Assembly (NCBI GenBank): GCA_964350885.1
Contig: CAYGKV010000003.1
Location: 15,444 to 79,443 of the forward strand
Reading direction: 5' to 3'
Length of the DNA: 64,000 bases
Source: an uncultured Candidatus Saccharibacteria bacterium
Lineage (GTDB): Bacteria > Patescibacteriota > Minisyncoccia > Phycocordibacterales > UBA2100
The stretch's first letter is position 1, and each line of letters starts with the position of its first letter. A program made the position numbers and the translations under genes. The notes under the pieces are model-generated. The model saw only the letters and a program-made list of their open reading frames with translations, was not told where the DNA came from and ran no database searches. Shown here one piece after another: positions 16,630 through 44,656 of the stretch.

Positions 16630-16645
16630 GTGACGCGTCTCTCGC

Positions 16646-20620: not shown

Positions 20621-20632
20621 GGAACAATTATC

Positions 20633-20668
20633 AGCCCAAAACCCCGCCCATGTGGCGGGGTTTTGGGT
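20633..20668 (+). terminator. Rho-independent terminator
   Basis: cccaaaaccccgccc-atgt-ggcggggttttggg. Confidence 0.6.
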
Positions 20669-20755
20669 TGGGGACAGCTGCGTAGGAGGGAAGGGAGAGC
20701 GGCGGTACTATTCAAGCAGTAGTCTTATTATGTTTCCTATTATTTTTATAACCAT

Positions 20756-21292: not shown

Positions 21293-21465
21293 GACTGTTT
21301 CGTTTCTCTCTGATCGGATAGTCCGAGACCCCGCCAAAAGGCGGGGTTTTGGTGCTAGAATGTCGGATCGGCGGTAGGTGTAAGGAAAGTCTGGGCGGGT
21401 CGTCTTATCTTTGTGCCCAAATTAGTCGTTTATTAATTATTAGACCACAAAACTATTCATTAACT

Positions 21466-22695: not shown

Positions 22696-22826
22696 TCGTC
22701 CAAAAATCGTAGCAGGGAAGCGCCGCGCTAGTCGCGGCGCTTTCTGTTGCCATTTTCAGGGTTTTATCGTACTATGCGGATTCGCCCACGGTACCGTAGA
22801 ATCCCTTCATTTGAGCCATAAAAACC

Positions 22827-25365: not shown

Positions 25366-25865
25366 TGCATATGAATGTAATGGGAAGACAAAGGGGGGTA
25401 ACTTTTTTTGAAGTACTCATTGTTATGGGCATCTTTGCGCTGGTTAGTAGTTTCGCTCTTCTGGTCAGTATGCAAAGTTATCGAAGCGCAAATTTTCGTT
25501 CCGACCGCAATCTTCTGGTCGCAGCGCTCCAGCGTGCTCGCGCACAATCCATGAACAACGTGTGCCTCGGCACTGTCTGCACTGATGGAAAAGCGCACGG
25601 TGTCGCCATCCAGCCAATCGATCACCTGGATTCTTTCGTCGTATTTCAGACTTCAAGTGGAGGTGGGTACACAGGGCGGGCTTCTTCCGACATAGCGCAT
25701 GACGCGATATTTCCTGTAAACCCGAATTCCGTCATCACGCAAACCACGATCGTATTTACGCAACTTTCTGGTACTGCTCCCGCATCCGTTATAGAAATCG
25801 ACCAAGCGGGATATGATTCTGACGTCCACGTCGAAACGAATGGCCGGATTTGGTGGACAATTTAA
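25362..25865 (+). CDS. Prepilin-type N-terminal cleavage/methylation domain protein (minor pilin)
   Basis: RG|VTFFEVLIVMGIFALV: Gly at -1, Glu at +5, followed by a hydrophobic helix. Confidence 0.6.
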   Translation: MMHMNVMGRQRGVTFFEVLIVMGIFALVSSFALLVSMQSYRSANFRSDRNLLVAALQRARAQSMNNVCLGTVCTDGKAHGVAIQPIDHLDSFVVFQTSSGGGYTGRASSDIAHDAIFPVNPNSVITQTTIVFTQLSGTAPASVIEIDQAGYDSDVHVETNGRIWWTI

Positions 25866-25868
25866 TGT

Positions 25869-27383
25869 ATGAATCGCGGATTTTCCATTATTGAACTCCT
25901 CATCGCGATGTCGTTGGCCACGATAGTCATGAGCGGTGTTGTGGTCGGCACGGTGGGAAGCGTCGGGAGCTTCGGCTCTGCGATAGGGGGTAAGCAGACA
26001 GTCGTGAGCGATGGTGAGATCAACACCATGGCACTCCACAAAGCGCAGGATCTCATCGAAGGGGCTGCTGCAGTAGCGCGTACAAATTATTCCGCGGTCA
26101 TTCCGACGACCGCCGTCGATTCCTCGGGAGGCCTAACATATACGAAGACACTCACCATTCCCACGGCATATGCCACACAGTGTTCGCAGAGTATCGCGAG
26201 CACCGTGTCTTGGAGCGCCACCTACGGCCGCACGCTCTGGGTCGGCGCGACAACCACCATTACAAATATTCCTGAGATGCTCGCACTCGGGGGTGATTGC
26301 GCGATCACACCACCACCCATCGGCGGATGGAATCCACCTCATATCTATGCGTACGACACTTTTTCTGGCAAACCAACTGCACTGGACGCGCTGGAGCATA
26401 TAGCATATATGGGCGAAGATAACTCACCCTGGCTACGTATTGCCGATGCGCGCACTGTACCTCTTCCAATTCCGCACAACGGCGATTTATTTATTCCTCT
26501 TCCATACGCCAATAACTTCAACTCGACTGGCAAAGTCCTCGATCAGATAAATGATGTTGACGTGTATAAACATGAAGCTAGTGGGAAAGTGTACGCATTT
26601 GTCGCCACAGCAAGCACGACAGCGCAACTTGTGGTGATTGACGTTACAGATATTCAGAATCCCACCATTGCCGTTAACGGTACCGGTATTCTTGCCAAAC
26701 GGAACCTTACCGATGTTACCGCAACTGATTCAACAGCGTGGGGTTGGCGCGTTTATTACTACAACGGAAAGCTATATATAACTGCACGAGAGACGGCGGG
26801 CCCCGAACTACATATCTTCGATGTCACGGATCCAAGAGACCCGACGGAAATTGGACGGAAAGAATTAAATACTACCGTAAATGACTTTGTGATAAGCAAT
26901 GGCCTCGGATATTTTGCGGTTCAAAGCGATGCGACAGGTCCGCTGCGGGTTTATAACGTGGCTACTCCGACGGGTATCACCGAAGTCGTTGGTGCGCGGG
27001 GCAACATTGCTGGAACTGAGAATGGGTTATCGATATTTTTGATCGGTCCTCGCCTCTATTTCGGCCGTCAAAAAAATTCCGGCCCTGAATTTTATATGTT
27101 AGACGCAAGTAGCCCTCTCACGGCATCAGGAGGGTTGCCGATTCTCGCATCGAAAGAGATTGGAGACGACGTAACTGATTTGCGAGTTGTTGGTCCGTTT
27201 GCATTTGCAGCCGTTAAGCACGCAAACGAAGAGTTTCAAGTATGGCCTTCGGACCTTTCGGGGCCCGCTATCAACATCTACAACTTCGGAAACGTCATCA
27301 ACGCAGGATTTGATTATAATAATGAGTGGTTTTTTGTCACTGGCGGATCGACTCCTAATTTTAAAATACTTTACAGTCCTTGA
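25869..27383 (+). CDS. Pilin-like protein fused to an LVIVD-repeat beta-propeller (candidate pilus tip adhesin)
   Basis: N-terminus MNRG|FSIIELLIAMSLATIV (class III signal). The C-terminal ~330 aa carry repeated LVVIDVTDIQNP / LHIFDVTDPRDP / LRVYNVATP / FYMLDASSP motifs. Confidence 0.6.
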   Translation: MNRGFSIIELLIAMSLATIVMSGVVVGTVGSVGSFGSAIGGKQTVVSDGEINTMALHKAQDLIEGAAAVARTNYSAVIPTTAVDSSGGLTYTKTLTIPTAYATQCSQSIASTVSWSATYGRTLWVGATTTITNIPEMLALGGDCAITPPPIGGWNPPHIYAYDTFSGKPTALDALEHIAYMGEDNSPWLRIADARTVPLPIPHNGDLFIPLPYANNFNSTGKVLDQINDVDVYKHEASGKVYAFVATASTTAQLVVIDVTDIQNPTIAVNGTGILAKRNLTDVTATDSTAWGWRVYYYNGKLYITARETAGPELHIFDVTDPRDPTEIGRKELNTTVNDFVISNGLGYFAVQSDATGPLRVYNVATPTGITEVVGARGNIAGTENGLSIFLIGPRLYFGRQKNSGPEFYMLDASSPLTASGGLPILASKEIGDDVTDLRVVGPFAFAAVKHANEEFQVWPSDLSGPAINIYNFGNVINAGFDYNNEWFFVTGGSTPNFKILYSP

Positions 27384-27384
27384 T

Positions 27385-27867
27385 ATGAACCGCGGATTCA
27401 CGCTCATCGAGACGCTCGTCTACCTCGCGCTCTTCGCGCTTATTATCGGCGGCTTGGTTGTTACCACCTACCTTCTCTTCCAAACGAGCGATCGCTACCA
27501 GACCCGTGCGACGATGCAAGAAGAGAAAAATTTTATACTCGCGAAAATCACGTGGGCCCTCTCACAAGCTCGGTCTGTGTGTGATCCAGCAGCTAATACC
27601 TCGGGCACGACGCTCTCTGTCGTTACTCTCGGTGGGACGTGCTCTCCTCCAGACATCACGGTCGCTCTTTCGGGGTCAGATGTACAGTGGGGAGGCGTGG
27701 CGCTCAACAATGCGAGCGTGCGCGTGGATCGTCTTCTATTCATTCACACCTACGCAGGAGGTAGCAATCCCGATAGTGTCGAGGTAGGGCTTACGATAAG
27801 CGCCAACACCCCGACAGGCATGCAGATTTCTGAGAGAGCTTCGACGACGCGCTACATACGAAAATGA
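27385..27867 (+). CDS. Prepilin-type pseudopilin
   Basis: MNRG|FTLIETLVYLALFALIIGG. Confidence 0.6.
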   Translation: MNRGFTLIETLVYLALFALIIGGLVVTTYLLFQTSDRYQTRATMQEEKNFILAKITWALSQARSVCDPAANTSGTTLSVVTLGGTCSPPDITVALSGSDVQWGGVALNNASVRVDRLLFIHTYAGGSNPDSVEVGLTISANTPTGMQISERASTTRYIRK

Positions 27868-28331
27868 AACGCCAAGAACACGAGAGAGGGTTTATTGCGC
27901 TGATGTCGGTCATGGTCATTTCAGCTGTTTTGTTGGTGCTCTTGTTTACTCTCGGCGCGTCCTCGTTCCTGAATCGTTTTGATGTGCTTGATTCCCAAAA
28001 CAAACGGGTGAGCCTCGCACTCGCGGAAGCATGCGTGAATATGGCAATGATCAATATCGCACAAGATTCTGATTACGGTATCACGCCATCGTTACCATCT
28101 GCTGGTGAATGCGTGGGGGTGTCGGACGCATGTGTCTCTGGATCAAAAAAGATCTGCAAAATCTGCCAAGTTACGATTGTGGGCAGCGAAAAAGAAATTA
28201 TTACTCGTGCCGCCTATGGAGGCACGTACACCAATCTCAGAATACGAGGCACCCTTGGCTCCACCAACTTTTCAGTGAGCCGGTGGGAGGAATTTACCCC
28301 TTATTCTGGGTCATGTACTACAACACCGTAA
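27864..28331 (+). CDS. Pilin-like protein lacking Glu+5 (PilX/GspK-like minor pilin)
   Basis: ERG|FIALMSVMVISAVLLVLLF with Met at position +5; overlaps the upstream stop by 4 bp. Confidence 0.5.
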   Translation: MKRQEHERGFIALMSVMVISAVLLVLLFTLGASSFLNRFDVLDSQNKRVSLALAEACVNMAMINIAQDSDYGITPSLPSAGECVGVSDACVSGSKKICKICQVTIVGSEKEIITRAAYGGTYTNLRIRGTLGSTNFSVSRWEEFTPYSGSCTTTP

Positions 28332-28407
28332 GCCCTTGCGCGCCCCTGGGGAGCATGGTATAAAGCACGTCTTACGAGCAGATTAATAATTTAAGCGCTC
28401 ATAACCT

Positions 28408-28875
28408 ATGTTTAATAACAAGTCAAAGGTGGGTAATAAAGGGTTTACCCTCATCGAAATCCTCGTGGTTATCGCAATAATCGCGATACTTGCTGCAATC
28501 GTACTCGTGGCTATCAATCCAGCCAAACGCTTCGAAGACGCGCGCAACAGCCAGCGAAAGGCCAATGTCGAGGCAATCTTGAGTGCTATTCAGCAAAATA
28601 TGGTTGATAACATCGGCATAACAACCTGTACGACGATCACAGCCACTCCACAGAACATCGCGTCATCAGGTGGTGTAGATCTTACTGGTTGCTTGGCTCC
28701 GTACCTCGCAGTCTTACCAGTCGACCCAAAGACTGGTACTTGGAATGCAGGACCACCACTAGTCTACGACACAAAATACTCAGTGTCGCAGAACGCCACT
28801 ACCAAGCAGATTACCGTTACAGCCCCAGCTGCTGTTACTGATGGTGTACCAGCGGGAATCTCAATCACTCGCTAA
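28408..28875 (+). CDS. Type IV major pilin (PilA-like)
   Basis: KG|FTLIEILVVIAIIAILAAIVLVAINP, the canonical N-terminus; 155 aa; followed by a strong terminator. Confidence 0.75.
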   Translation: MFNNKSKVGNKGFTLIEILVVIAIIAILAAIVLVAINPAKRFEDARNSQRKANVEAILSAIQQNMVDNIGITTCTTITATPQNIASSGGVDLTGCLAPYLAVLPVDPKTGTWNAGPPLVYDTKYSVSQNATTKQITVTAPAAVTDGVPAGISITR

Positions 28876-28960: not shown

Positions 28961-29000
28961 CATACACACAACCCCCACGGTCGTAGGTCTCGTATGTAGG
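28961..29000. repeat. Conserved hairpin repeat, copy 1 (core ACAACCCCCACGGTCGTAGG)
   Basis: catacacacaacccccacggtcgtaggtctcgtatgtagg: the core is shared with the copies at 29101 and 29765; the arms are imperfectly complementary. Confidence 0.55.
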
Positions 29001-29100: not shown

Positions 29101-29150
29101 AAATACACACAACCCCCACGGTCGTAGGAGTTGTATGTATTTTGTGTGAT
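29101..29150. repeat. Conserved hairpin repeat, copy 2, 12 bp upstream of the regulator start
   Basis: aaatacacacaac-ccccacggtcgtaggA-gttgtatgtattttgtg: a 10-bp stem at 9/10 with a 16-nt loop containing the conserved core. Confidence 0.6.
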
Positions 29151-29161: not shown

Positions 29162-29752
29162 ATGGGAACTCTTGAAAAAGAGGCGTACGCCATTCGTCGC
29201 CGTGGATACTTGCAGAATGCAGTACTCGCAACCGTCGGCATTGCGGGTATCTTGGCAGTCGCTGTGGTGGCGCCCAATACGCTACAGCTTCTCGGAAAGT
29301 TTGGGCCTCTAAAAAGATTTAATGAACAAGCGCGCTCGACGGCAAGCCGTCTCGCGCGCAAAGGATTTATCACGTTTGTCGAGATCAACGGCAGGAAATG
29401 CCTGCGGATTACGGAGGCAGGGAAGCGCGAGCTGGAGAGGGTGGAAAGAGAAGCGCTGTTGCGCGCCGGCCCCATAAGGCCGAAGCGGTGGGATCGTCGC
29501 TGGCGTATGGTCGTTTTCGATATTCCAGAAAAACGTCGTCGCACACGCGACAGGCTTCGAGAGATGGTATCTTCGTATGGCTTTTTGAGATTGCAGGATA
29601 GTGTGTGGGTGCACCCCTACGATTGCGAAGACGTCATCACACTCTTAAAGGCTGATCTCGGGGTGGGGAAGGACGTGCTGTACGCTATTGTGGAGAAAAT
29701 AGAAAACGACACGTGGATCCGTAAGCACTTCAAACTCCCTCTCTCTTCGTAA
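29162..29752 (+). CDS. Membrane-tethered winged-helix regulator with a PaaX-middle-domain / Cas2-like fold C-terminus
   Basis: A TM helix (LQNAVLATVGIAGILAVAVVAP); a wHTH (LARKGFITFVEINGRKCLRITEAGKREL); then WDRRWRMVVFDIPEKRRRTRDRLREMVSSYGFLRLQDSVWVHP, which aligns with E. coli PaaX WDGKWLLLLSEG...QLIWQGFGALAPSLMASP and with the Cas2 VxxYDV..KRR..L pattern. This call rests on recalled sequences, not a search. Confidence 0.55.
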   Translation: MGTLEKEAYAIRRRGYLQNAVLATVGIAGILAVAVVAPNTLQLLGKFGPLKRFNEQARSTASRLARKGFITFVEINGRKCLRITEAGKRELERVEREALLRAGPIRPKRWDRRWRMVVFDIPEKRRRTRDRLREMVSSYGFLRLQDSVWVHPYDCEDVITLLKADLGVGKDVLYAIVEKIENDTWIRKHFKLPLSS

Positions 29753-29764: not shown

Positions 29765-29812
29765 CACACATACATACAACCCACACGGTCGTAGGTCTTG
29801 TGTGTATGTGTG
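29765..29812. repeat. Conserved hairpin repeat, copy 3, 13 bp downstream of the regulator stop
   Basis: cacacatacatacaaccc-acacggtcgtagg-tcttgtgtgtatgtgtg. Confidence 0.6.
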
Positions 29813-29907: not shown

Positions 29908-30336
29908 TCAGTGGCTGGAACGGAAAAAAGCTTTCACGACAATAAAAAGCGAGATTAGAAAATAGACGGCAAACAAAATGCCGATAAAAAGAGCTATTAG
30001 CGAACTCCCCATCGCGCTTGCAATGCCCAAACTACTCCCGCCAGTCTCGTTTGTAAGCCAGAGTACCACAGCTATCATTGAGGGTATCCACCATCTTGAA
30101 AAACGAAACCAAGTTAGAAAAACGGGATTTGGTAGAAAGAAAAAGATAGGCGTTAGAAGGACTAAGGGAAGCAAGGGAGACAGTCCGAGGACAGTATATT
30201 GACAAAGATTAATCGGGTACCCGCTCTCAAGTCGGTAGAGACAAGAGTATCCCGGACGCATTTCAAAGAGAATTATAAGAACGATCGTTATGAGAGCGGC
30301 AATGCCAACCAGAAAGACAGTTCTCTTGCTTAGCAT
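29908..30336 (-). CDS. Hypothetical membrane protein (4 TM)
   Basis: 142-aa hydrophobic ORF with hydrophobicity-consistent codon usage. Confidence 0.4.
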   Translation of the reverse strand: MLSKRTVFLVGIAALITIVLIILFEMRPGYSCLYRLESGYPINLCQYTVLGLSPLLPLVLLTPIFFFLPNPVFLTWFRFSRWWIPSMIAVVLWLTNETGGSSLGIASAMGSSLIALFIGILFAVYFLISLFIVVKAFFRSSH

Positions 30337-30345: not shown

Positions 30346-33282
30346 TCATCTTAACCCAATTATGACTGAATAAGTCTTACCATCCTCCAACTGTGCATAA
30401 ATACGATACCAGTACCCGGGCATTAAACCCTTTGTGCTCCAGTTATAAATGTACTGCTGGCTCGTGCCGTCCCATCGGTACGAAGTGCCACTCGTGCCGG
30501 CAACTGCGTACACGGGCTCGTCCACGGGTGCGTTCAGTGGCGAGAGTCTGACTGGAGTTATCCAAACGGGTGAAGCTGATGATTGAATAGGAGTGCCAGC
30601 GGTATTTTTGAGTTGAAACTTCACAGGTACGGTACTGCCGCCCTTAAACACGCTCGGCGTGAGTGCGGGGTTAATCGTAGGGTCATCGATGGGCTGTAGG
30701 AATCCGGTCCACAGATATTCTATTTTGAGCGTTCCTGCCACAAACTCCGTGAATTCGTAGTCATGTGAGGTAAGAGTGCCGATAGTGCATGTGATGGGGT
30801 AGATTCCAACCAGGCTCGCGCTGGTCGCCGTCGTTGAGCAACGCGCGCTTCCCGCGACGTCGTTGCTTGAGGGTGTGTCATCGCCGACGAATCCGCTCAG
30901 TGTCCACGTGAGAGGTGGAATTACTCCACCGATCATCATCGTCTTGTTGGCAGTCGTTAGAGTTAGTTTCGGTTTTGGTAGCACTACGGTGTCGTCCAGC
31001 TTAGGCACCACAATGTGCTCAACAATGCCGTCGCCGTTTTTGTCGATGAGGAGTGGATTTTCTTCAGACAGATCGATCGATGTCTCTATCGAGACGATGG
31101 TGTCGGGCGTCGTTGGCATATCTTTCCATGTGCTGCTTGCAACGACCGTATCACCTCGGAGCTGCTCAGCGCGGAAGGTGAAGGTGCCTGTCTCGTAGCC
31201 ATCCATCGTGATATGAAGCGAGGAGGTGGCATCTGTGAAAAGATATTTCACGTCACCGAACTCTGTGTAATACGTGCCGGGGATTTGTTCTTCCACCTGG
31301 CCGGTAGTCGTTGAAATGCCAGTGTGACGGCCCTGATTGTCGAATAGATCGAGCGTGAGCGGGGAGTGAAGGGAGTAGCGGAGGCGAGTGCCAGGGAACG
31401 AGGGCGATTCAGTGGTCAGGTATGAGTAATTTGAAATCGGCGACAGCTCATTTGTAACTGTATCGGAAATAAATGACAGCAGTTCCTGTATCTCGAGAAT
31501 ATCTGCATGACCGAAAGAGAGGAGGCCACCGAGTGTGGCAATCGGATGATGTTTGTTGTAGTCGTAGATGTTTGCCCAATAATTCACCGCACCTGCGGCA
31601 GCGCTCCACAAAGCGCTTGGCACAACCACGGTGCCATCGCCATCAATTGTGAAATTTGCTTCGGGCTTCACGCCCGCACCTTTTTGTTTGTATGTAATTC
31701 CGCTCACGGTCGTTGGCACGCCCCATCCGGCTATTTGGATCAAGTCTATTCCTGTTGGAGGAACCCAGTTGTCGAGATTGGCATGCAACGTTTCCGCTGC
31801 CGACAGGAGCGAATCGCTCATCTGGATGGGCTGATCTTTGTCACCCGTCTGGGAGTCGCCTCTCCCATAGGTATCGGTGAGAAATTGATGCAATGCGGGT
31901 CCTGAGTGGATTTCGTTTCCATACCTTGCTATCCAATCTGTCAGTGATGCATCGAATGTAACGACTGGATCATCCACATATGTGAAGTAATTGGCGGATG
32001 GTAGTAATTGATAGAACATTGGGGACGTACTTGCAAAAGTACGCACTGTCTCTTCAGAAAGAATGAACGAAATCACATCGGCAGGGAGCCCTTGATCATA
32101 TCCATGCAGTCCGGCAGCCACGGCCATCGGTGTACCTGCCTGCGGCACGGCCACAAAAATCATTTTGTCGATGAGGTCAGAAGCTTCTGCGCCAAGTACT
32201 TCGGTGAGTTGTTTGGCAAGTAATCCGCCGTTGGAGTGCGCTATGACTGTTACCTTCCCAGATTTTGAAGAGCCAGCGAGTCTCCGCAATTCCTGAATGA
32301 CGTACGGAGTGGATGTGGCGCGTTGGTTACCGGAATAATACAGCTTTCCACCCACCTCGTTTCCATACGCGAGGATGTCGTCGAGGGAGAGCCGCCAGTC
32401 GTAGGCCATGGGTTGCCAATCGTTTATATGGCCCTGATCTTTCAAGTCATCCATTTTTGAGATAAAGGACAGGTATATATTTTTGCCGGTCGGGAGTTCA
32501 TCAAGCACGTCGCCGATCTTTGTGTAGATCTCGGGATGGGCACTCGAACCGTCAGCGCTCATGAAGAGGTCTTGCACGTCGCCATTGTTGAGTGGCTCCC
32601 ACAGCTTTTGTTCAGGAACTTCGACTACCTGCGGTCGATACAAGCGGCTCGATTCGATACCGGGCAAGAAGAGCACGTTGGAAAAACAGTTTTGTGTGCA
32701 GAGCATTGGGGCCGGGCCGGGTTGGCCAGAAACCACGAAGTACCCCATCGTGGATGTCCCGTAGAAGGTTACGCCCGAACCCCCAACTTTCGATATCCGT
32801 AATGACGCGTGATCATAGACCAGGGGCAACGTCGTCGAAGCCGCTGCAGCAGCAGGGTTTCCTGCATCATCAGCTTGTCGGTAATTAAACAGACGGGGAG
32901 TAATTCCGGTAAATGGCGGAACGGCTACGGTCGTTTGGTACTGCTGTCCGGGTACACTCCAATTGTTGGTATTGGGGCAGGGCTTCGTCTCGGCCGCGTC
33001 AAGCCAACACAGAAGTCGGAGGCCTGCACGGTTAAACGGTGCAAAGAACGGGAATGTCCGATCGTCAAGGGCTATAATTTCGACGGTGTCTACTCGTGAA
33101 CCTCCGAGCGTGTTTGGGAGTGCAATTTGCCAGTAATTTCCAGTAGTGGTGATGGTTGTATAGATCTGTGAGCGATCTGTTTGCGAGAGTAGAACGTCGG
33201 CAAATGTATCGAGGGGGGATGCGAGCAGAACAAAAATTGTACCGAGGAGAGGGGAGGCGATACGCGACTGCGCGAGTCTCAT
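30346..33282 (-). CDS. Large secreted LCAT-like (lecithin:cholesterol acyltransferase / PF02450-type) alpha/beta-hydrolase lipase with shared C-terminal domain
   Basis: Signal MRLAQSRIASPLLGTIFVLLASPLDTFA; an LCAT N-motif VLFLPGIESSRL; the YDWRLS hallmark; a nucleophile elbow VTVIAHSNGGLLA (AHSxG as in Bacillus LipA); and the shared C-terminal domain ending ...QQYIYNWSTKG... Confidence 0.65.
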   Translation of the reverse strand: MRLAQSRIASPLLGTIFVLLASPLDTFADVLLSQTDRSQIYTTITTTGNYWQIALPNTLGGSRVDTVEIIALDDRTFPFFAPFNRAGLRLLCWLDAAETKPCPNTNNWSVPGQQYQTTVAVPPFTGITPRLFNYRQADDAGNPAAAAASTTLPLVYDHASLRISKVGGSGVTFYGTSTMGYFVVSGQPGPAPMLCTQNCFSNVLFLPGIESSRLYRPQVVEVPEQKLWEPLNNGDVQDLFMSADGSSAHPEIYTKIGDVLDELPTGKNIYLSFISKMDDLKDQGHINDWQPMAYDWRLSLDDILAYGNEVGGKLYYSGNQRATSTPYVIQELRRLAGSSKSGKVTVIAHSNGGLLAKQLTEVLGAEASDLIDKMIFVAVPQAGTPMAVAAGLHGYDQGLPADVISFILSEETVRTFASTSPMFYQLLPSANYFTYVDDPVVTFDASLTDWIARYGNEIHSGPALHQFLTDTYGRGDSQTGDKDQPIQMSDSLLSAAETLHANLDNWVPPTGIDLIQIAGWGVPTTVSGITYKQKGAGVKPEANFTIDGDGTVVVPSALWSAAAGAVNYWANIYDYNKHHPIATLGGLLSFGHADILEIQELLSFISDTVTNELSPISNYSYLTTESPSFPGTRLRYSLHSPLTLDLFDNQGRHTGISTTTGQVEEQIPGTYYTEFGDVKYLFTDATSSLHITMDGYETGTFTFRAEQLRGDTVVASSTWKDMPTTPDTIVSIETSIDLSEENPLLIDKNGDGIVEHIVVPKLDDTVVLPKPKLTLTTANKTMMIGGVIPPLTWTLSGFVGDDTPSSNDVAGSARCSTTATSASLVGIYPITCTIGTLTSHDYEFTEFVAGTLKIEYLWTGFLQPIDDPTINPALTPSVFKGGSTVPVKFQLKNTAGTPIQSSASPVWITPVRLSPLNAPVDEPVYAVAGTSGTSYRWDGTSQQYIYNWSTKGLMPGYWYRIYAQLEDGKTYSVIIGLR

Positions 33283-33396
33283 ACGGCATGTATACCACAC
33301 CGACGTTTTTCGGTGCTCGTGTCCCTGTGGATTGCCGACGTACACACCGAACCTACGCTATAGCGTAGGTTCGGTGTTTTCATTGCACAGGAATAA

Positions 33397-34155
33397 TTAT
33401 GTGGCGCACGCGAGGAGAAGATCGTTGATTACTTTGAGGGTTTCGGACGGACCGGAGACCTCGTGCGTCTGGATGCCAGTTTTGATAACGACCTCGTCGT
33501 TGCCGCCGGGGTAGAGCGCATCGCCTACATAGAGCATTTCGGAAGTCGGGATGCCAAGCTTTTTCGAGAACCAGTTTACTCCATACGCTTTGTTGATTCC
33601 CTTGTGCGTGATGTCTATCGTGGTCATGCCGCCCATCAGTATTTCAAACTGCGGGATCTTCTTTTCGAGGACGACTTTGAGTTTTTTTCGTTTTTCTTGG
33701 TCGGGATCCCATGCCGCTTTTTCTTCATACGATGCCTGTAGTCCAATAGTAGCAAGCGCTATCTGCGCATCGCGGTCGATGATTTCGGGCGCGTGTTCGG
33801 GATGTTTTCCAAGGACGCCGGTCTCCGCGAGCGCCTCGTTGATCGCGGTGCGTATCGTCGCGCGATCGCTCACGGAAAGCCCGAGACTGTATGCGATGCT
33901 CCAGGCGCCGTTCTCCCAGGTGTAGCACTCGGCGGTGCTGTTGGGGAAAATATAGAATTGAGAAATGTGCGGAGAGTGTTCAAGGTAGGAGATAAATTGA
34001 TCTTTAATGCGCGGAAAACCGGCGGCGCTCATGATGGCAATCGGTATGAGCTCCAGTAGTTTTCCAAGCCTGTCTACCATCTCCGGCTTGGGCGGTTGAA
34101 AGCTCTCTGCCAGTGTGTCGTCGAGGTCGAATATGGCGACACGGGGACAATTCAT
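33397..34155 (-). CDS. HAD-IIB family hydrolase (eukaryotic phosphomannomutase-like)
   Basis: DxD motif VAIFDLDDTLA and the HAD motif IV YVGDALYPGGNDE; 252 aa. Confidence 0.7.
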   Translation of the reverse strand: MNCPRVAIFDLDDTLAESFQPPKPEMVDRLGKLLELIPIAIMSAAGFPRIKDQFISYLEHSPHISQFYIFPNSTAECYTWENGAWSIAYSLGLSVSDRATIRTAINEALAETGVLGKHPEHAPEIIDRDAQIALATIGLQASYEEKAAWDPDQEKRKKLKVVLEKKIPQFEILMGGMTTIDITHKGINKAYGVNWFSKKLGIPTSEMLYVGDALYPGGNDEVVIKTGIQTHEVSGPSETLKVINDLLLACAT

Positions 34156-34193
34156 CCAGAGAGCGTACCACGAACGTGATAAAATAATAGTAC

Positions 34194-35396
34194 GTGAAAA
34201 CGCGCATTCTCATGTTTGGGTGGGAGTTTCCTCCGTACAACAGCGGAGGTTTGGGCGTTGCGTGTTTGGGGCTTACCAAAGCACTCTCCGATATCGGCAT
34301 CCAGGTGATTTTTGTCATGCCGAAAAAGCTCGACATCCAAACGCCGTGGGCGCGCATGATATTTGCTGAGACGGGCATAGAAGGTCATGCGGTCAATTCG
34401 ATTTTGAAACCATATCTTACGAGCGGAAGCTACGGTCGGGAGAAGGAGGGAATCTACGGCGAGAATCTATTGAGTGAAGTGCGTCGGTATGCCAGCCTCG
34501 CTGTCGACATCGCCCGCGAGGAGCACTACGATGTTATTTATGCCCACGACTGGCTTTCTTTTGGCGCAGGAATCGAAGCTAAGCGCGTTACCCATAAGCC
34601 GCTCATCGTGCATGTGCACGCGACAGAGTTTGATCGCTGCGGGGGGATGGGGGGAATAAATCCCGACGTGTTTGCAATCGAGAAAGAGGGGATGGAAGCG
34701 GCAGATTGCGTCATCGCCGTCTCTGAACTCACCAAGAATATTATTGTAAAAGAGTATGGCATCCCCGCCCAGAAAGTGCGCGTGGTATACAACGGCATCG
34801 ACGATACTACGGCCCCCTCGGGCAGCGGATCGTTGTCACGTTTGCGATCGCTGAAGGCGTCGGGGTACCGGCTCGTCCTCTTCATCGGTCGTATAACTCT
34901 TCAGAAAGGTCCGGATTATTTCTTGCGCGCGGCGAAGCGGGTGCTCGAACACAACTCGCAGGTTCTCTTCATTCTTTCGGGTACTGGTGACATGGAGAAT
35001 GAGGCAATGCATCTTGCCGCGGAACTGGGAATCGCTGGGCAGGTATTTTTCACTGGTTTTCTTGAGGGATACGAACGGCATGAGGTGTACAAAGCGGCAG
35101 ATCTTTTCGTGATGCCTTCGGTTTCCGAGCCGTTTGGCATCACCGCGCTTGAAGCGATGCGATTGGGGACACCAGTGCTCATGTCTAAGCAGTCGGGAGT
35201 CTCGGAAGTCGTGCGGCATGCACTCAAGGTTGATTTTTGGGATGTTGATGAGATGGCCAACAAAATTCTCTCTGTGGTCGGTCATCCGGGATTGCGCGAA
35301 GCGCTCGCACAAAACGCAGCCAAAGAAGCCGAACGACTCACATGGTCAGACGCTGCGCAAAAAGTGGGGGGAATTGTGCAAGAGCTAGTCGGTTAG
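34194..35396 (+). CDS. GT4-family glycosyltransferase (glycogen synthase-like)
   Basis: N-terminus MFGWEFPPYNSGGLGVACLGL; the GT-B C-terminal domain LVLFIGRITLQKG...FVMPSVSEPFGITALEAM (EX7E). Confidence 0.8.
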   Translation: MKTRILMFGWEFPPYNSGGLGVACLGLTKALSDIGIQVIFVMPKKLDIQTPWARMIFAETGIEGHAVNSILKPYLTSGSYGREKEGIYGENLLSEVRRYASLAVDIAREEHYDVIYAHDWLSFGAGIEAKRVTHKPLIVHVHATEFDRCGGMGGINPDVFAIEKEGMEAADCVIAVSELTKNIIVKEYGIPAQKVRVVYNGIDDTTAPSGSGSLSRLRSLKASGYRLVLFIGRITLQKGPDYFLRAAKRVLEHNSQVLFILSGTGDMENEAMHLAAELGIAGQVFFTGFLEGYERHEVYKAADLFVMPSVSEPFGITALEAMRLGTPVLMSKQSGVSEVVRHALKVDFWDVDEMANKILSVVGHPGLREALAQNAAKEAERLTWSDAAQKVGGIVQELVG

Positions 35397-35421
35397 GTGG
35401 TAGAATAATGGCATTAACCGC

Positions 35422-36618
35422 ATGAAATCGGTCTGCTTTTATTTTCAAGTGCATCAGCCGTATCGCGTGAAGCGGTATCGGATTTTTGACGTGGGGAATG
35501 ATCCGGAATATTTCAATGATCGCGGTGAGAGTAATCTCAACAACAGGAAAATCATCGAGAAAGTAGCCCGCAAATCATACATTCCGACGACGGCGCTCAT
35601 CTTGGAGCTCTTGAAGCGGCACCCGGAGTTTCGCGTGAGCTTCTCCTTTTCCGGTATTGCGCTCGAGCAGCTCGAACGGTACGCGCCTGAGGCGATATCA
35701 CTCTTCAAGCAGGTGATCGATACCGGACAAGCGGAGGTCTTGGGTGAGACGTACTATCACACGCTCGCTTTTTTCTACTCACCTATAGAATTCGAGCAAC
35801 AAGTTACTAAGCATCGAGAAATCATACGCCGCTTGTTTGGTGTGCGGCCGCGCGTCTTCCGCAACACAGAACTCTCGTATCGCAATGATGTAGGCGAATG
35901 GGCAGATCGGAGTGGCTACGCAGGCGTGATCGCCGAAGGGTGGGATCCAGTGCTCGGGTGGCGCAGCCCCAACTACGTGTACAAGGCGAAGGGGGCGCAG
36001 AATACGCGCTTACTTCTCAAAAATTACAGACTCTCCGATGACGTAGCGTTTCGTTTTTCTTCACGCGATTGGTCCGAGTGGCCGCTCACAGCGGAGAAGT
36101 TTGGTGCGTGGCTCGGTGGTGCCGAGGGCGATACGGTGAATCTCTTTATGGATTATGAGACGTTTGGAGAACACCAGTGGGAGGAGACCGGCATCTTTGA
36201 ATTTTTGGAAAAACTTCCCGCAGAACTCGCAAAAAATCCTGGCGTGGATTGGAAGACCCCCTCGGAAGTCATCACGAGTTATGAGTCGCATGATGAGGTG
36301 GATGTGCCACACATCCTTACCTGGGCAGATACCGATCGCGATTTGACGGCATGGGTGGGGAATCCGATGCAGAAGGCAGCTATAGAAAACATCTACGCGC
36401 TTGAAAATGATGTGCGGGCGGGGAACGATCACAAACTCCTTGAAGATTGGCGGAAGCTCCAGACATCGGATCATTTCTACTATATGTGCACGAAATGGTT
36501 TGCCGACGGCGATGTGCACGCCTACTTCTCGCCGTACGAATCCCCGTACGATGCCTACATCGCATACATGAACGCGCTTTCTGATTTGCGTTTGCGCGTT
36601 GGGCAGCGAAAAGGCTGA
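35422..36618 (+). CDS. Glycoside hydrolase family 57 protein
   Basis: GH57 N-terminal signature CFYFQVHQPYR, and catalytic-region conservation (GETYYHTLAFFYSP). Confidence 0.8.
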   Translation: MKSVCFYFQVHQPYRVKRYRIFDVGNDPEYFNDRGESNLNNRKIIEKVARKSYIPTTALILELLKRHPEFRVSFSFSGIALEQLERYAPEAISLFKQVIDTGQAEVLGETYYHTLAFFYSPIEFEQQVTKHREIIRRLFGVRPRVFRNTELSYRNDVGEWADRSGYAGVIAEGWDPVLGWRSPNYVYKAKGAQNTRLLLKNYRLSDDVAFRFSSRDWSEWPLTAEKFGAWLGGAEGDTVNLFMDYETFGEHQWEETGIFEFLEKLPAELAKNPGVDWKTPSEVITSYESHDEVDVPHILTWADTDRDLTAWVGNPMQKAAIENIYALENDVRAGNDHKLLEDWRKLQTSDHFYYMCTKWFADGDVHAYFSPYESPYDAYIAYMNALSDLRLRVGQRKG

Positions 36619-36620
36619 GT

Positions 36621-38606
36621 ATGTCGCGCTCTATTGTCTTGTCGAACGGTGAGCTATGCGTTGCGCTCGACAACTTCGCCGAAGTGCGAGATATCTATTA
36701 CCCGCACGTGGGGCTCGAAGATCATGTGCGTGGGCACTATGTGCATCGCGTGGGGGTCTGGGTGGATGGGCGCGTGAGTTGGCTCTCGGGTGACTCTGCA
36801 TGGGAGATCAGCGTCTCATGTGAAGAGGATGCGCTTGCGGCGGTTATTCATGCGCGAAATTCACAACTTGGTGTAGAGCTTGCGTTTACCGATGTGGTGT
36901 ACAACGAACGCCCGATTTTTATCCGACGGGTGCGGATTACCAACACATCGGATCAGAATCGCGAGATAAAGTTGTATTTTGCGCACGAATTTGAGATATA
37001 CAAATCACACGGGAGTGACACCGCGTATTTTGATCCCCAGTCGCATACGATAATCCATTACAAAGGCGAGCGTGCTTTTCTCATCGGTGCCACGCTCGAC
37101 AGTTTTCCGTTCGATGACTACACGACAGGCCGCGTAAATTTTCACGGTCTTGAAGGTTCCTTCCGCGATGCCGAAGATGGAGTTCTCTCGAAAAATCCGA
37201 TTGAGCACGGACCGGCCGACTCGGTCATCGGGCTCGGTGCTTTGTACCAGGCGGGTCAATCTCGGACTTGTTACTACTCAATCGTGGCAGCCAAATCCAT
37301 CGAGAGCGCCCACGATTTGCATCAGTTTTTAATCAAGAAAACGCCAGAACACCTCATCCAATCGACGACGAGTTTTTGGAATGCCTGGGTGCATTCGTAT
37401 GATTGGCATTTTTATGGACTTTCGAAAGAGCATGTCGCGTTGTTTCGGCGCTCCCTCATGTATATGCGCGCGCACGTCGATATAGACGGCGGTGTCATCG
37501 CTTCGACCGATTCCGACATGCTGCAATATGGATTAGACACCTACTGCTACGTCTGGCCGCGCGATGGCGCGTTTGTAGCGATGTCGCTCGATGCTGCAGG
37601 ACAGAGTAATTCTTCGCGGCGTTTTTTTGAGTTTTGTAAGGGAGTGATAACGAGGGAGGGGTATTTCATGCACAAATACCTGCCAGACAAATCTCTCGGA
37701 TCGTCTTGGCATCCGTGGATTCGGGATGGACAGCAACAGCTCCCCATACAGGAGGATGAGACAGCGCTCGTGATTTACGCGCTCTACGAACACTACAAAC
37801 GCAGTCACGATTTGGAATTCGTCGAGTCTGTCTACAGCATGCTCGTCGAAAAACCGGCGAATTTTCTTGTTGAATATCGGGATACCGCGACCAAGCTTCC
37901 TAAGCCCTCGTACGATCTCTGGGAGCGTTTGCGCGGATGCTCCACATTTACTGCGGCGAGCGTCTATGGCGCGCTTGTCGCCGCTGCGGAACTTTCAAAA
38001 GTATTGGGCAAAAACTCTCATGAGGTGCGGTACCGTAAGGCTGCTTCTGAAGTACGCGAGGCGATCATAAAGTATTTGTGGGACGAAAAGAGCGGGTCGT
38101 TTGTGAAGTTGGTGAATTGGGGGGACAAGGGATTGGAGTATGACAGGACGCTCGACATTTCAAGCGTCTACGGAATCTTCATGTTTGACATACTGCCGGC
38201 AGGTGACAAAAAACTCGCTCGCGCATTTGAAAATACTGTTCGCGTGCTCACTCACGGTGTCTCGGTGGGCGGTGTAGCTCGGTTTGAAAATGATGATTAC
38301 TATCGCGTCGCGGGCCCTTCGCCCGGGAATCCCTGGGTTATCACAACCCTGTGGTGGGCAGAATATCTGATTGCGAATGCGCGTACTGAGGCGGATTTGA
38401 ATCGCGTGCGCGAGATTTTCTCGTGGGTGGTGCGGTACGCGCAGCCCTCGGGCGTGCTTTCGGAGCAACTCAATCCGCAAACTGGTGAGCAGGTCTGCGC
38501 CGCACCTCTTACATGGGCGCACGCCTCGTATGTCGCCGTCGTTCTCAAATATCTCGATAAGGTAGAAAAATTGGGTTTTTGTAAGGACTGCAATCCCGCT
38601 CCATAA
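36621..38606 (+). CDS. Glycoside hydrolase family 15 (glucoamylase/glucodextranase-like)
   Basis: Archaeal/bacterial GH15 layout: an N-terminal beta-sandwich and an (alpha/alpha)6 domain with WPRDGAF and LWER.RG motifs; 661 aa. Confidence 0.8.
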   Translation: MSRSIVLSNGELCVALDNFAEVRDIYYPHVGLEDHVRGHYVHRVGVWVDGRVSWLSGDSAWEISVSCEEDALAAVIHARNSQLGVELAFTDVVYNERPIFIRRVRITNTSDQNREIKLYFAHEFEIYKSHGSDTAYFDPQSHTIIHYKGERAFLIGATLDSFPFDDYTTGRVNFHGLEGSFRDAEDGVLSKNPIEHGPADSVIGLGALYQAGQSRTCYYSIVAAKSIESAHDLHQFLIKKTPEHLIQSTTSFWNAWVHSYDWHFYGLSKEHVALFRRSLMYMRAHVDIDGGVIASTDSDMLQYGLDTYCYVWPRDGAFVAMSLDAAGQSNSSRRFFEFCKGVITREGYFMHKYLPDKSLGSSWHPWIRDGQQQLPIQEDETALVIYALYEHYKRSHDLEFVESVYSMLVEKPANFLVEYRDTATKLPKPSYDLWERLRGCSTFTAASVYGALVAAAELSKVLGKNSHEVRYRKAASEVREAIIKYLWDEKSGSFVKLVNWGDKGLEYDRTLDISSVYGIFMFDILPAGDKKLARAFENTVRVLTHGVSVGGVARFENDDYYRVAGPSPGNPWVITTLWWAEYLIANARTEADLNRVREIFSWVVRYAQPSGVLSEQLNPQTGEQVCAAPLTWAHASYVAVVLKYLDKVEKLGFCKDCNPAP

Positions 38607-38624
38607 AATGATACAATCTCGAAT

Positions 38625-39212: not shown

Positions 39213-39221
39213 TTTTTTACG

Positions 39222-42630: not shown

Positions 42631-42633
42631 ACT

Positions 42634-43134: not shown

Positions 43135-43169
43135 GGCACAAATGTATCACACCGCTATAATGCATCCCT

Positions 43170-44006: not shown

Positions 44007-44018
44007 ACTGTACGACCT

Positions 44019-44654: not shown

Positions 44655-44656
44655 TT

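What the first reader, a model, noticed from the sequence alone, without database searches (positions are those of the whole stretch)
30346..33282. 979-aa secreted LCAT-like phospholipase/acyltransferase in a putatively lipid-auxotrophic lineage
Seen: a Sec signal, an LCAT-family N-motif (VLFLPGIESSRL), the diagnostic YDWRLS, a nucleophile elbow AHSNGG, then about 600 aa of extra beta-rich sequence ending in the shared C-terminal domain. Established: PF02450 enzymes transfer or hydrolyse glycerophospholipid acyl chains. Inference: next to a pilus/adhesin island in a small genome with (apparently) limited lipid biosynthesis, this is a candidate for harvesting host-membrane lipids.
Basis: partly seen in the sequence, partly recalled or inferred. 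Interest (0 to 1): 0.55.

Follow-up and report, generated by a model that had tools for sequence, protein, structure and literature searches.

The report
Exported LCAT-like lipase with membrane partner
This gene from a tiny, host-dependent bacterium (Patescibacteria) encodes an exported lipase built like human LCAT and lysosomal phospholipase A2. It is almost always followed by a small, unnamed membrane-protein gene, which makes the pair a concrete candidate for how these bacteria attack or harvest neighbours' membrane lipids.

Summary
The ORF on the minus strand at 30346-33282 (978 aa) has an N-terminal export signal and all the quoted motifs. A high-confidence structure model of aa 195-620 matches LPLA2 and LCAT best, with a wide gap to ordinary lipases. 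Profile alignment maps Ser350, Asp549 and His592 onto the LPLA2 triad S165/D327/H359, and all three are invariant in the 75-sequence alignment.

- The catalytic domain runs to about aa 612, so the "extra" sequence is about 360 aa, not 600. It consists of a family-conserved beta-sandwich, an MBG domain and a PxKF domain.
- There is also a variable 165-aa N-terminal module.
- The LCAT-type membrane-binding subdomain and its disulfide are missing.
- The pilus adjacency is not conserved in relatives.

New finding: the 142-aa, four-helix membrane protein 9 nt downstream (29908-30336) is an almost invariable operon partner. It follows 65 of 66 related lipase genes, sometimes as arrays of several copies, and has no Pfam or NCBIfam family.

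Best reading: an exported phospholipase A or transacylase aimed at foreign membranes, paired with a self-protection (immunity-like) or docking protein. Lipid scavenging is plausible but untested. No paper describing the module turned up in four literature searches.

The parts
30346..33282 (-). Lipase gene, 978 aa plus stop. Multidomain exported LCAT/LPLA2-fold alpha/beta hydrolase.
   Evidence: ORF list. Pfam LCAT, MBG_2 and DUF7379. NCBIfam PxKF. An identical protein occurs on a 102-kb metagenome contig.
33199..33282 (-). Predicted Sec signal peptide, aa 1-28 (MRLAQSRIASPLLGTIFVLLASPLDTFA). There is no lipobox Cys.
   Evidence: Hydropathy and n-h-c layout. 106 of 116 homologs have an equivalent N-terminal hydrophobic segment. 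Not run through SignalP.
32701..33198 (-). Variable N-terminal module, aa 29-194. Not conserved across the family; relatives carry beta-helix, DUF5011, Big-like or other modules here.
   Evidence: Low occupancy and conservation in the 120-sequence alignment. No Pfam hit. Variable Pfam decorations in homologs.
31447..32700 (-). Catalytic LCAT/LPLA2-like alpha/beta-hydrolase plus cap domain, aa 195-612. Contains VLFLPGIESSRL (203-214), YDWRLS (294-299), nucleophile elbow AHSNGG (348-353), DGDGTV (547-552) and GHADIL (591-596).
   Evidence: AF2 pLDDT 93.7, pTM 0.93. Foldseek top hits LPLA2/LCAT, then Tle4. hhalign probability 96.3%, E 1.5e-9.
32233..32235 (-). Codon of the catalytic nucleophile Ser350.
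   Evidence: Invariant in 75 sequences. Aligned to LPLA2 S165. PDB 4x92 is the S165A mutant at that position. Codon checked.
31636..31638 (-). Codon of the catalytic acid Asp549, in DGDGTV.
   Evidence: Invariant. Aligned to LPLA2 D327 in DGDGTV.
31507..31509 (-). Codon of the catalytic base His592.
   Evidence: Invariant. Aligned to LPLA2 H359, FGHADIL to SEHIEML, in the C-terminal sub-alignment hhalign, probability 90%.
30973..31446 (-). Family-conserved beta-sandwich domain, aa 613-770. Has an invariant LHSPL (638-642) and ends in a dockerin/EF-hand-like DKNGDG loop (747-752). Conserved as strongly as the catalytic domain.
   Evidence: Conservation. AF2 pLDDT 89.9, all-beta. No significant PDB fold match, best E 9e-3. 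No Pfam hit. The Ca-loop resemblance comes from my own knowledge.
30727..30966 (-). MBG_2 domain (PF18676), aa 773-852. Present only in a subset of relatives.
   Evidence: Pfam E 1.5e-13, 51.5 bits against a cutoff of 25. Variable among homologs.
30349..30708 (-). C-terminal PxKF domain (NCBIfam NF038114 'rightmost'), aa 859-978. Present only in a subset of relatives.
   Evidence: NCBIfam E 1.5e-30, 105.8 bits against a cutoff of 35.
29908..30336 (-). Conserved operon partner, 142 aa. Predicted four TM helices with the N-terminus inside. The first outside loop carries two conserved Cys, and there is a W.RF..WWIP motif. It starts 9 nt after the lipase stop, preceded by GGAAG.
   Evidence: Sequence and hydropathy. 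Homologs sit directly downstream of 65 of 66 related lipase genes, median gap 9 bp. No Pfam or NCBIfam family. 1830 representative clusters in the exhaustive search.
33344..33377 (.). Perfect 15-bp-stem palindrome between the upstream HAD/PMM-like gene and the lipase gene. Probably the boundary of the transcription unit.
   Evidence: Terminator-like scan and sequence.
29770..29806 (.). 37-nt hairpin-forming repeat copy between the convergent partner gene and the PaaX-like gene. Probably the 3' boundary of the lipase-partner operon.
   Evidence: the repeat finder and pattern search: 3 copies against 0.02 expected.

Best explanation
The locus is a self-contained two-gene module found across many Patescibacteria lineages.

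Gene 1 encodes a Sec-exported, multidomain serine lipase. Its catalytic core has the LCAT/LPLA2 fold (alpha/beta hydrolase plus cap) and a Ser350-Asp549-His592 triad. By analogy with LPLA2, LCAT and the bacterial effector Tle4, it most likely deacylates glycerophospholipids (phospholipase A activity). It may also transfer the acyl chain to an acceptor other than water.

The swappable N- and C-terminal modules (here an unknown N-module, MBG and PxKF) probably target or tether the enzyme to a cell surface.

Gene 2, translationally coupled 9 nt downstream, encodes a small four-helix membrane protein of the producer. I think it most likely shields the producer's own membrane, which is built from the same kind of lipids, from the enzyme. 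That would make it an immunity-like protein. Less likely, it docks or activates the enzyme.

The products, free fatty acids and lysolipids from a host or neighbour membrane, would damage that cell and supply acyl lipids to an organism whose lineage is reported to lack complete known lipid biosynthesis.

Shown: fold, triad, export-type N-terminus, family distribution, gene pairing and partner arrays.
Inferred: substrate, direction of attack, immunity role, nutritional use.
For: Fold and active site:
- AF2 model pLDDT 93.7.
- Foldseek puts LPLA2 and LCAT first (E 4e-14 to 1e-10, TM 0.6-0.68) and the T6SS phospholipase Tle4 seventh (E 3e-11). The next lipase class follows at 1e-5.
- hhalign against LPLA2+LCAT gives 96% probability. 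YDWR, AHS*NGG and DGD*GTV are in register, and His592 aligns to H359.
- The triad is invariant in 75 sequences.

Export:
- Signal-like N-terminus, shared by 91% of homologs.
- No other TM segment.
- Paired cysteines, and a DsbB gene in the window.

Module:
- The partner lies directly downstream in 65 of 66 loci, median gap 9 bp.
- It is the only conserved neighbour among 76 loci.
- Pairing holds whether or not MBG/PxKF are present.

Immunity-like pattern:
- Partner paralog arrays next to a single lipase: L057 has 4 copies, L088 has at least 4, and five further loci have 2.
- Tle-family lipases are encoded with cognate immunity genes (10.1101/2023.03.28.534661, PMC9860674).

Lineage need:
- CPR bacteria lack complete lipid synthesis and are enriched in lysolipids, and phospholipase A is named as a possible source (PMC7242380).
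Against: - There is no biochemical or expression data.
- Substrate specificity cannot be read from the fold. The LCAT/LPLA2 membrane-binding subdomain and its disulfide are absent: LPLA2 residues 20-69 correspond to only about 22 residues with no Cys. How the enzyme engages a bilayer is therefore unknown.
- Known Tli immunity proteins are soluble or lipoprotein inhibitors, not four-helix membrane proteins.
- The partner's most conserved stretch (W76/F79/P85) is predicted to sit at the cytoplasmic face of the membrane. That is not where an extracellular enzyme would be bound. The topology is only a hydropathy prediction.
- Partner arrays are present in only about 10% of loci.
- The genome's lipid pathways could not be checked beyond 64 kb, and the window does encode a CDP-alcohol phosphatidyltransferase.
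Confidence: 0.45

Rival explanations
1. Docking or activation rather than immunity. The small membrane protein is the cell-surface receptor, or an activator, that holds the otherwise anchorless exported lipase on the producer's membrane through the conserved beta-sandwich. The enzyme would then work at the contact zone with the host. There is no toxin-immunity logic.
For: - The mature lipase has no TM segment, lipobox or sortase signal.
- The putative anchoring C-terminal domains vary, whereas the beta-sandwich (aa 613-770) and the partner are both universal.
- A Tli immunity protein has been reported to activate its Tle lipase (10.1101/2023.03.28.534661).
- Lipase-plus-membrane-helper operons exist, for example LipA:LipB (PDB 9g8u, listed).
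Against: - Arrays of 2 to 4+ partner paralogs beside one lipase gene are unusual for a stoichiometric anchor.
- The predicted outside loops of the partner are tiny, about 20 aa and 8-14 aa.
Confidence: 0.25
2. Self-membrane remodelling. The enzyme acts on the outer leaflet of the producer's own membrane, as a phospholipase A or LCAT-like transacylase. It would generate the lysolipids reported to be enriched in CPR cells, or re-tailor scavenged lipids, with the partner as its membrane-embedded regulator or substrate presenter.
For: - Lysolipids are enriched in CPR-size fractions and were proposed to relieve curvature stress (PMC7242380).
- LCAT/LPLA2 enzymes are transacylases as well as hydrolases (PMC6277198 and established knowledge).
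- The enzyme is tightly coupled to a membrane protein of the producer.
Against: - The variable, adhesin-like N- and C-terminal modules (beta-helix, DUF5011, MBG, PxKF) look like targeting devices for external surfaces, not housekeeping features.
- Multiple lipase copies per genome and tandem modules fit an offensive or polymorphic role better.
Confidence: 0.15
3. Not a phospholipase. It would be an LCAT-fold esterase acting on another ester substrate, such as neutral lipids, wax or polyesters, acylated cell-wall polymers or lipoproteins. In that case the lipid-scavenging story is wrong.
For: - Only 15-18% identity to LPLA2/LCAT.
- Sequence-only PDB searches do not reach them.
- The membrane-binding subdomain is missing.
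- JGI pipelines label homologs 'pimeloyl-ACP methyl ester carboxylesterase'.
Against: - All the closest structural relatives, including bacterial Tle4, are phospholipid-acting enzymes, with a 6-log E-value gap to triacylglycerol lipases.
- The obligatory membrane-protein partner points to a membrane context.
Confidence: 0.1

Closest known systems
Lysosomal phospholipase A2 (PLA2G15; PDB 4x90-4x97) and LCAT (PDB 4xwg, 5txf, 5bv7, 6mvd); Pfam PF02450
   Same: - Best structural match over the whole domain (TM 0.6-0.68).
- Alpha/beta hydrolase plus cap.
- Ser-Asp-His triad in register.
- Shared motifs: (V)LxxPG at strand 1, YDWR, AHSxG and DGDGTV.
- Both are exported enzymes.
   Different: - 15-18% identity.
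- The Pfam model matches only profile positions 66-206 of 392.
- The membrane-binding domain region is shortened by about 28 residues and lacks the conserved disulfide.
- Bacterial origin, with added N-module, beta-sandwich, MBG and PxKF domains.
- An obligatory downstream membrane-protein gene.
- Activity unknown.
Tle4/TplE (P. aeruginosa PA1510; PDB 4r1d, Tle4-Tli4 complex), a T6SS antibacterial phospholipase effector
   Same: - Same fold group (Foldseek E 2.8e-11, rank 7).
- Profile-level motif matches VIFIPGIMGTNL and KVILVTHSMGGLVA.
- A bacterial lipase encoded next to a cognate protective gene.
   Different: - Delivered by a type VI system into Gram-negative periplasm. Here there is a Sec signal, and no T6SS gene among the ORFs scanned in the window.
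- Tli4 is a soluble periplasmic protein, not a four-helix membrane protein.
Secreted phospholipase proposed for host-lipid scavenging in the CPR predator Vampirococcus lugosii (Vamp_34_196; PMC8080830)
   Same: Same biological idea: a CPR bacterium without phospholipid synthesis exports a phospholipase that disrupts the host membrane and supplies lipids.
   Different: - The family of that gene was not compared here.
- That paper's phospholipase passage mentions no partner gene.
- It concerns a different CPR lineage (Absconditabacteria, versus Parcubacteria/Paceibacterota-type here).
Small polytopic immunity proteins of membrane-acting bacteriocins, such as the 3-4 TM immunity proteins of pore-forming colicins (from my own knowledge)
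   Same: About 110-180 aa, 3-4 TM helices, encoded immediately beside the toxin gene, sometimes in arrays. They protect the producer's membrane.
   Different: No sequence relationship was tested or known. Those toxins are pore formers, not lipases.
Lipase-foldase operons (LipA-LipB/Lif; PDB 9g8u)
   Same: A secreted lipase gene followed by a membrane-anchored helper gene.
   Different: Lif is a protein of about 340 aa with a single TM and a large periplasmic chaperone domain. The partner here is almost entirely membrane-embedded.

Membership tests
LCAT family (Pfam PF02450; LCAT/LPLA2/PDAT-like) | Match to the family HMM above the curated gathering score | tested here: met
   34.1 bits against GA 21, E 2.4e-8. 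Only aa 270-431 match, on profile positions 66-206 of 392. The C-terminal catalytic piece alone gives no Pfam hit.
LCAT family (Pfam PF02450; LCAT/LPLA2/PDAT-like) | Alpha/beta-hydrolase plus cap fold closest to LPLA2/LCAT | tested here: met
   Foldseek ranks 1-6 and 8-13 are LPLA2/LCAT (E 4e-14 to 1e-9, TM 0.52-0.68). The next lipase class is at 1e-5. Model pLDDT 93.7.
LCAT family (Pfam PF02450; LCAT/LPLA2/PDAT-like) | Ser-Asp-His triad at the positions of LPLA2 S165/D327/H359 | tested here: met
   hhalign maps S350 to S165 and D549 to D327, and H592 to H359. All three are invariant in 75 sequences. The triad geometry in the model could not be measured, because no coordinates were available.
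LCAT family (Pfam PF02450; LCAT/LPLA2/PDAT-like) | Membrane-binding domain with its conserved disulfide (LPLA2 C32-C56) | tested here: not met
   The profile alignment starts at LPLA2 residue 70. The stretch between the PG motif and that point is about 22 aa, against about 50 aa in LPLA2. It has no Cys; the target's Cys are at 92, 102, 195, 199, 815 and 832.
LCAT family (Pfam PF02450; LCAT/LPLA2/PDAT-like) | Phospholipase A or acyltransferase activity on glycerophospholipids | not testable with these tools
   Needs enzyme assays.
Tle4 family of T6SS lipase effectors | Genetic linkage to T6SS components (VgrG/PAAR/Hcp) and delivery by T6SS | tested here: not met
   No T6SS domain was found in the roughly 50 window ORFs scanned against Pfam, nor in the relatives' called neighbours. 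The protein has a Sec-type N-terminus.
Tle4 family of T6SS lipase effectors | GxSxG lipase with an adjacent cognate immunity gene | tested here: inconclusive
   GxSxG (HSNGG) is present. There is an adjacent conserved gene (65 of 66), but its immunity function is untested and it is unrelated in type to Tli4.
PxKF domain proteins (NCBIfam NF038114) | C-terminal domain matching the model above its cutoff | tested here: met
   105.8 bits against a cutoff of 35, aa 859-978, full profile 1-113.
MBG_2 domain (Pfam PF18676) | Match above the gathering score | tested here: met
   51.5 bits against 25, aa 773-852.

The most novel reading that the evidence does not exclude
The lipase-partner module is the missing lipid-acquisition device of Parcubacteria-type Patescibacteria. 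An exported LCAT-fold enzyme would take acyl chains from host phospholipids and, like LCAT, transfer them to an acceptor in the symbiont's own membrane, or release lysolipids that are taken up. The four-helix partner would act as the membrane-embedded acceptor site or gate, and at the same time protect the producer. This would explain both the lipid auxotrophy and the lysolipid-rich membranes of these bacteria.
Probability: 0.15. Interest if true: 0.85.

Novelty: new variant of a known kind. Interest (0 to 1): 0.58.

Why it matters
How Patescibacteria obtain membrane lipids without complete known lipid biosynthesis pathways is an acknowledged open question. [quoted passage not shown]

This locus gives a specific, widespread and experimentally tractable candidate. 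The exported enzyme has a known mechanism class with defined catalytic residues, so S350A is an obvious control. It also comes with a previously unnamed, almost invariably co-encoded membrane protein.

The pair can be tested in surrogate hosts without culturing the organism, through toxicity and rescue, liposome assays and complex prediction.

It also extends the LCAT/LPLA2 fold, best known from human lipoprotein and lysosomal biology, to a large bacterial clade with a different way of engaging membranes.

Tried and rejected
- **Sequence-only PDB searches.** Searches with the protein and with a 75-sequence profile did not reach LCAT/LPLA2. They found only nucleophile-elbow matches to 7x2p, Tle4 and Geobacillus lipases. 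The link needed the Pfam HMM, fold search and profile-profile alignment.
- **C-terminal catalytic fragment (aa 497-613).** Run alone, it gave no Pfam hit and only a chance PDB hit to alcohol dehydrogenase.
- **Conserved beta-sandwich (aa 612-772).** It modelled well but has no significant solved relative: best E 9e-3, to DUF4425 and generic Ig folds. No Pfam family either.
- **Single-sequence homolog search with the window's partner protein.** It found nothing. Only a profile built from loci worked.
- **Pilus/adhesin adjacency as functional context.** Rejected, because clustering the neighbours of 76 related loci shows only the partner is conserved.
- **T6SS effector membership.** Rejected, because there are no T6SS genes and the protein has a Sec signal.
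- **GTG start at 33345 (999 aa).** Judged less likely, because it lies inside the upstream palindrome.
- **Whole-genome check for fab/pls genes.** Not possible. Only the 64-kb window and 10-kb flanks were accessible, and the source genome was not among the top 80 species-representative loci returned.
- **Literature searches.** Searches for 'LCAT' with Patescibacteria and for 'PxKF' found nothing relevant.
Full report
**1. The observation**

The finding's coordinates hold a real gene on the minus strand. The ATG is at 33282 and the TGA at 30348-30346, giving 978 aa. A longer reading from GTG 33345 (999 aa) would start inside a perfect 15-bp-stem palindrome (33344-33377). That palindrome separates the gene from the upstream HAD/PMM-like gene, so ATG 33282 is the more likely start.

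All quoted motifs are present:
- VLFLPGIESSRL, aa 203-214
- YDWRLS, aa 294-299
- AHSNGG, aa 348-353

The N-terminus (MRLAQSRIASPLLGTIFVLLASPLDTFA|DV) has a basic n-region, a 12-residue hydrophobic core and a small-residue c-region. There is no other TM-like segment and no lipobox. I could not run SignalP. Of 116 homologs that start with M, 106 have an equivalent N-terminal hydrophobic segment.

**2. Domain anatomy**

Database matches:
- Pfam: LCAT PF02450 at aa 270-431 (34.1 bits, gathering score 21, but only profile positions 66-206 of 392).
- Pfam: a sub-threshold DUF7379 hit on the nucleophile elbow.
- Pfam: MBG_2 at aa 773-852.
- NCBIfam: the PxKF 'rightmost' domain at aa 859-978 (105.8 bits).

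An alignment of 120 homologs shows that the family-conserved core is aa ~195-760. The N-terminal ~165 aa and everything after ~770 vary. Relatives carry beta-helix, DUF5011, Big-like, PD40 or no extra modules.

- about 260 aa of cap plus the remaining catalytic domain
- a conserved 150-aa beta-sandwich (aa 613-770, invariant LHSPL, ending in a DKNGDG loop)
- the variable MBG and PxKF domains

The PxKF domain recurs only weakly in one other window ORF, 19145-20620 (28 bits, below the cutoff).

**3. Is it LCAT-like, and is the triad there?**

AlphaFold2 of aa 195-620 with a 75-sequence alignment gave pLDDT 93.7 and pTM 0.93.

Foldseek against the PDB:

| Match | E-value | Note |
|---|---|---|
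| Lysosomal phospholipase A2 (4x90-4x97) | 4e-14 to 2e-13 | TM 0.61/0.68 |
| LCAT (5bv7, 4xx1, 5txf, 6mvd, 4xwg) | 1e-12 to 1e-9 | |
| T6SS phospholipase effector Tle4 (4r1d) | 2.8e-11 | rank 7 |
| Geobacillus/Pseudomonas lipases | 1e-5 and weaker | next class |

Sequence-only searches of the PDB did not reach LCAT/LPLA2. I therefore recovered the true LPLA2 and LCAT chain sequences from the PDB search output, aligned them and ran profile-profile comparison. The numbering in that alignment reproduces the published S165/D327/H359.
- hhalign gave 96.3% probability, E 1.5e-9, over 256 columns. YDWRLS aligns to YDWRRA, AHS350NGG to AHS165MGN, and DGD549GTV to DGD327GTV.
- A separate alignment of the C-terminal parts gave 90% probability. 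It adds FGH592ADIL to SEH359IEML.

Ser350, Asp549 and His592 are invariant in 75 sequences. PDB 4x92 is the S165A mutant at exactly the aligned Ser.

One defining accessory is missing. LCAT and LPLA2 have a membrane-binding domain (PMC6277198). The LPLA2 stretch 20-69, which holds the invariant Cys32 and Cys56, corresponds here to only about 22 residues without cysteine. How this enzyme engages a bilayer must differ.

**4. Who has it**

The identical protein sits on a 102-kb metagenome contig. A serine hydroxymethyltransferase from the same contig falls in a 90% cluster that also holds a protein named 'Patescibacteria group bacterium'.

More than 800 homologs were found, at 42-69% identity over the core. 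Where named, they come from Kaiserbacteria, Paceibacterota, Moranbacteria, Lloydbacteria, Nomurabacteria, Minisyncoccia and 'Patescibacteria group'. A few MAG labels are other taxa: 'Bdellovibrionales' (4 loci) and 'Nitrospira' (1 locus). The 'Nitrospira' contig and two of the 'Bdellovibrionales' contigs are short, so these may be binning or labelling problems. I did not verify this.

At least 492 confirmed loci occur among species-representative genomes, and some genomes have two copies. NCBI's pipeline already names some of them 'lipase/acyltransferase domain-containing protein'. I found no paper describing the family.

**5. The partner gene (not part of the original finding)**

Nine nucleotides after the lipase stop, preceded by GGAAG, starts a 142-aa ORF at 30336-29908. 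From hydropathy it has four TM segments, a basic N-terminus and C-terminus, and two Cys in the first outside loop.

Evidence that it is a conserved partner:
- The same arrangement appeared in four distant relatives examined by their gene calls.
- A profile built from these detected a homolog starting within 300 bp downstream on the same strand in 65 of 66 related lipase genes that had at least 500 bp of downstream DNA. The median gap was 9 bp and several overlap by 4 bp. The remaining case has it 1.1 kb downstream.
- All-against-all clustering of neighbours in 76 loci shows it is the only conserved neighbour. Everything else, including pili and adhesins, varies.
- Pairing holds in relatives that lack MBG/PxKF, so it goes with the conserved core.
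- Starting from the partner instead, two of four loci had a lipase upstream. In the other two, only a short truncated ORF lay between the partner and the contig end.

The family has no Pfam or NCBIfam model and no informative name. An exhaustive profile search finds 1830 representative clusters (1087 at E <= 1e-10). Almost all are stand-alone proteins of 125-150 aa, with a few tandem fusions.

Conserved features: the Cys pair, a Y-x-M-R-x-E-V-F-x-A-W-x-R-F-A-x-W-W-x-P stretch between TM2 and TM3 with an invariant Trp, and a Ser in TM4.

Several loci carry arrays of partner paralogs next to one lipase:
- 4 copies in L057
- at least 4 in L088
- 2 each in L019, L037, L064, L079 and L084
- L071 has two tandem lipase-partner modules

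**6. Mechanism**

Shown:
- an exported serine hydrolase of the LCAT/LPLA2/Tle4 fold with an intact triad
- swappable surface-type modules
- obligatory co-encoding with a small polytopic membrane protein
- occasional partner arrays

Established knowledge:
- LPLA2 and LCAT deacylate glycerophospholipids through an acyl-Ser intermediate. The acyl chain then passes to water or to a lipophilic alcohol.
- Tle-type lipases kill bacteria by degrading membrane phospholipid, and are encoded with immunity genes (PMC6277198, PMC9860674, 10.1101/2023.03.28.534661).
- CPR bacteria lack complete lipid synthesis and are rich in lysolipids, and phospholipase A is explicitly mentioned as a possible source (PMC7242380).
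- Secreted phospholipases have been proposed to breach host envelopes and supply lipids in other CPR lineages (PMC8080830, PMC11665869).

Inference: the enzyme attacks phospholipids of a host or neighbour membrane, and the partner keeps it from damaging the producer's own membrane. The arrays of partner paralogs and the autonomous, mobile two-gene layout favour an immunity-like role over a simple anchor. The evidence is indirect, though, and the partner's most conserved stretch is predicted at the cytoplasmic face.

My confidence levels:
- about 0.85-0.9 that this is an active LCAT-fold acyl-ester hydrolase or transferase
- about 0.45 for the composite explanation (external membrane target plus protective partner plus lipid gain)

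Rivals are docking/activation, remodelling of the producer's own membrane, and a non-phospholipid substrate.

**7. The lipid-auxotrophy premise**

Only 64 kb could be inspected. About 50 of its ORFs were scanned against Pfam, and none matched a fatty-acid synthase, PlsX/Y/C or acyl-carrier-protein family. A CDP-alcohol phosphatidyltransferase (4576-5103) and a DedA-family protein (39988-40605) are present. Head-group chemistry and lipid flipping may therefore be retained. In one relative a FabH-like gene follows the module. The premise rests on the lineage and the literature, not on this genome.

**8. Verdict**

The scavenging interpretation is reasonable but untested, and the pilus argument should be dropped.

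The added value is the near-universal lipase-partner module. It turns a generic 'secreted lipase' annotation into a defined, testable system bearing on an open question in Patescibacteria biology. It is a new variant of a known kind rather than a new kind. Interest: 0.58.

Noticed in passing
window 28962-28998, 29103-29139, 29770-29806: A 37-nt hairpin-forming repeat (ATACACACAACCCCCACGGTCGTAGG...) occurs three times, against 0.02 expected by chance. Two copies lie upstream and one downstream of the PaaX_M/Cas2-like gene (29162-29752), and it appears nowhere else in the window. It could be a REP-like element or a regulatory or terminator hairpin.
   Followed up: partly
window 47665-56447: A contiguous run of purine-biosynthesis-type domains. 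They look like purL (FGAM synthase), purQ, purK, purE, purM, purC and purB. Elsewhere there are thyA, folA, dcd, tmk, dCMP deaminase and SHMT (40697-45151). This is notable because Patescibacteria are usually described as lacking nucleotide synthesis.
   Followed up: no
window 33397-40004: A sugar and alpha-glucan-type gene cluster lies next to the lipase operon: HAD/PMM-like, GT4 glycosyltransferase, GH57, GH15, cupin-type glucose-6-phosphate isomerase and a ROK-family protein. GH57 also appears near the partner gene in two other contigs (L087, L090).
   Followed up: no
window 4576-5103 (-) and 39988-40605 (-): A CDP-alcohol phosphatidyltransferase (weakly PgsA/PssA-like) and a DedA/VTT-family membrane protein. 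Some phospholipid head-group and flipping functions may be retained, which qualifies the 'lipid auxotroph' label.
   Followed up: partly
L006 9063-10148; L005 9572-9967: In two relatives the gene right after the lipase-partner pair is lipid-related. One is a FabH-like ACP_syn_III/chalcone-synthase-like protein (L006). The other is a TspO/MBR protein (L005). Neither is conserved across loci.
   Followed up: no
L088 959-3262; L057 5215-10846: Tandem arrays of four or more paralogs of the small partner gene sit beside a single lipase gene. The exhaustive search also found a few fused double-length partner proteins (271-284 aa).
   Followed up: partly
window 12499-28875: A surface-protein island containing:
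- a 1376-aa protein with SpaA-type prealbumin-like, DUF11 and peptidoglycan-binding domains
- a CAP/YkwD-like protein
- a metalloprotease-like protein
- a 491-aa protein with a weak PxKF tail
- a PG-binding/fn3 protein
- type IV pilus-type genes: a T2SSE ATPase (PilB-like) and a T2SSF protein (PilC-like), plus four ORFs with an N-terminal methylation (pilin) motif and one adjacent ORF without it

The 601-aa ORF at 22764-24569 (-) is antisense to the T2SSE gene, has no Pfam hit and looks spurious.
   Followed up: partly
window 8458-9006: A DsbB-like disulfide-formation protein. This is consistent with the paired cysteines in the exported lipase (92/102, 195/199, 815/832) and in the outside loop of the partner.
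   Followed up: no
window 3271-3342: ARAGORN calls tRNA-Arg(CCT), but the Rfam tRNA model at gathering threshold did not report it. The neighbouring tRNA-Gly and tRNA-Phe were found by both.
   Followed up: no
loci L032, L033, L053, L066, L074: Some contigs carrying this Patescibacteria-type module are labelled 'Bdellovibrionales' or 'Nitrospira' in their records. Many are labelled 'uncultured Candidatus Saccharibacteria'. These are probably binning or automatic-labelling artefacts rather than true distribution.
   Followed up: no
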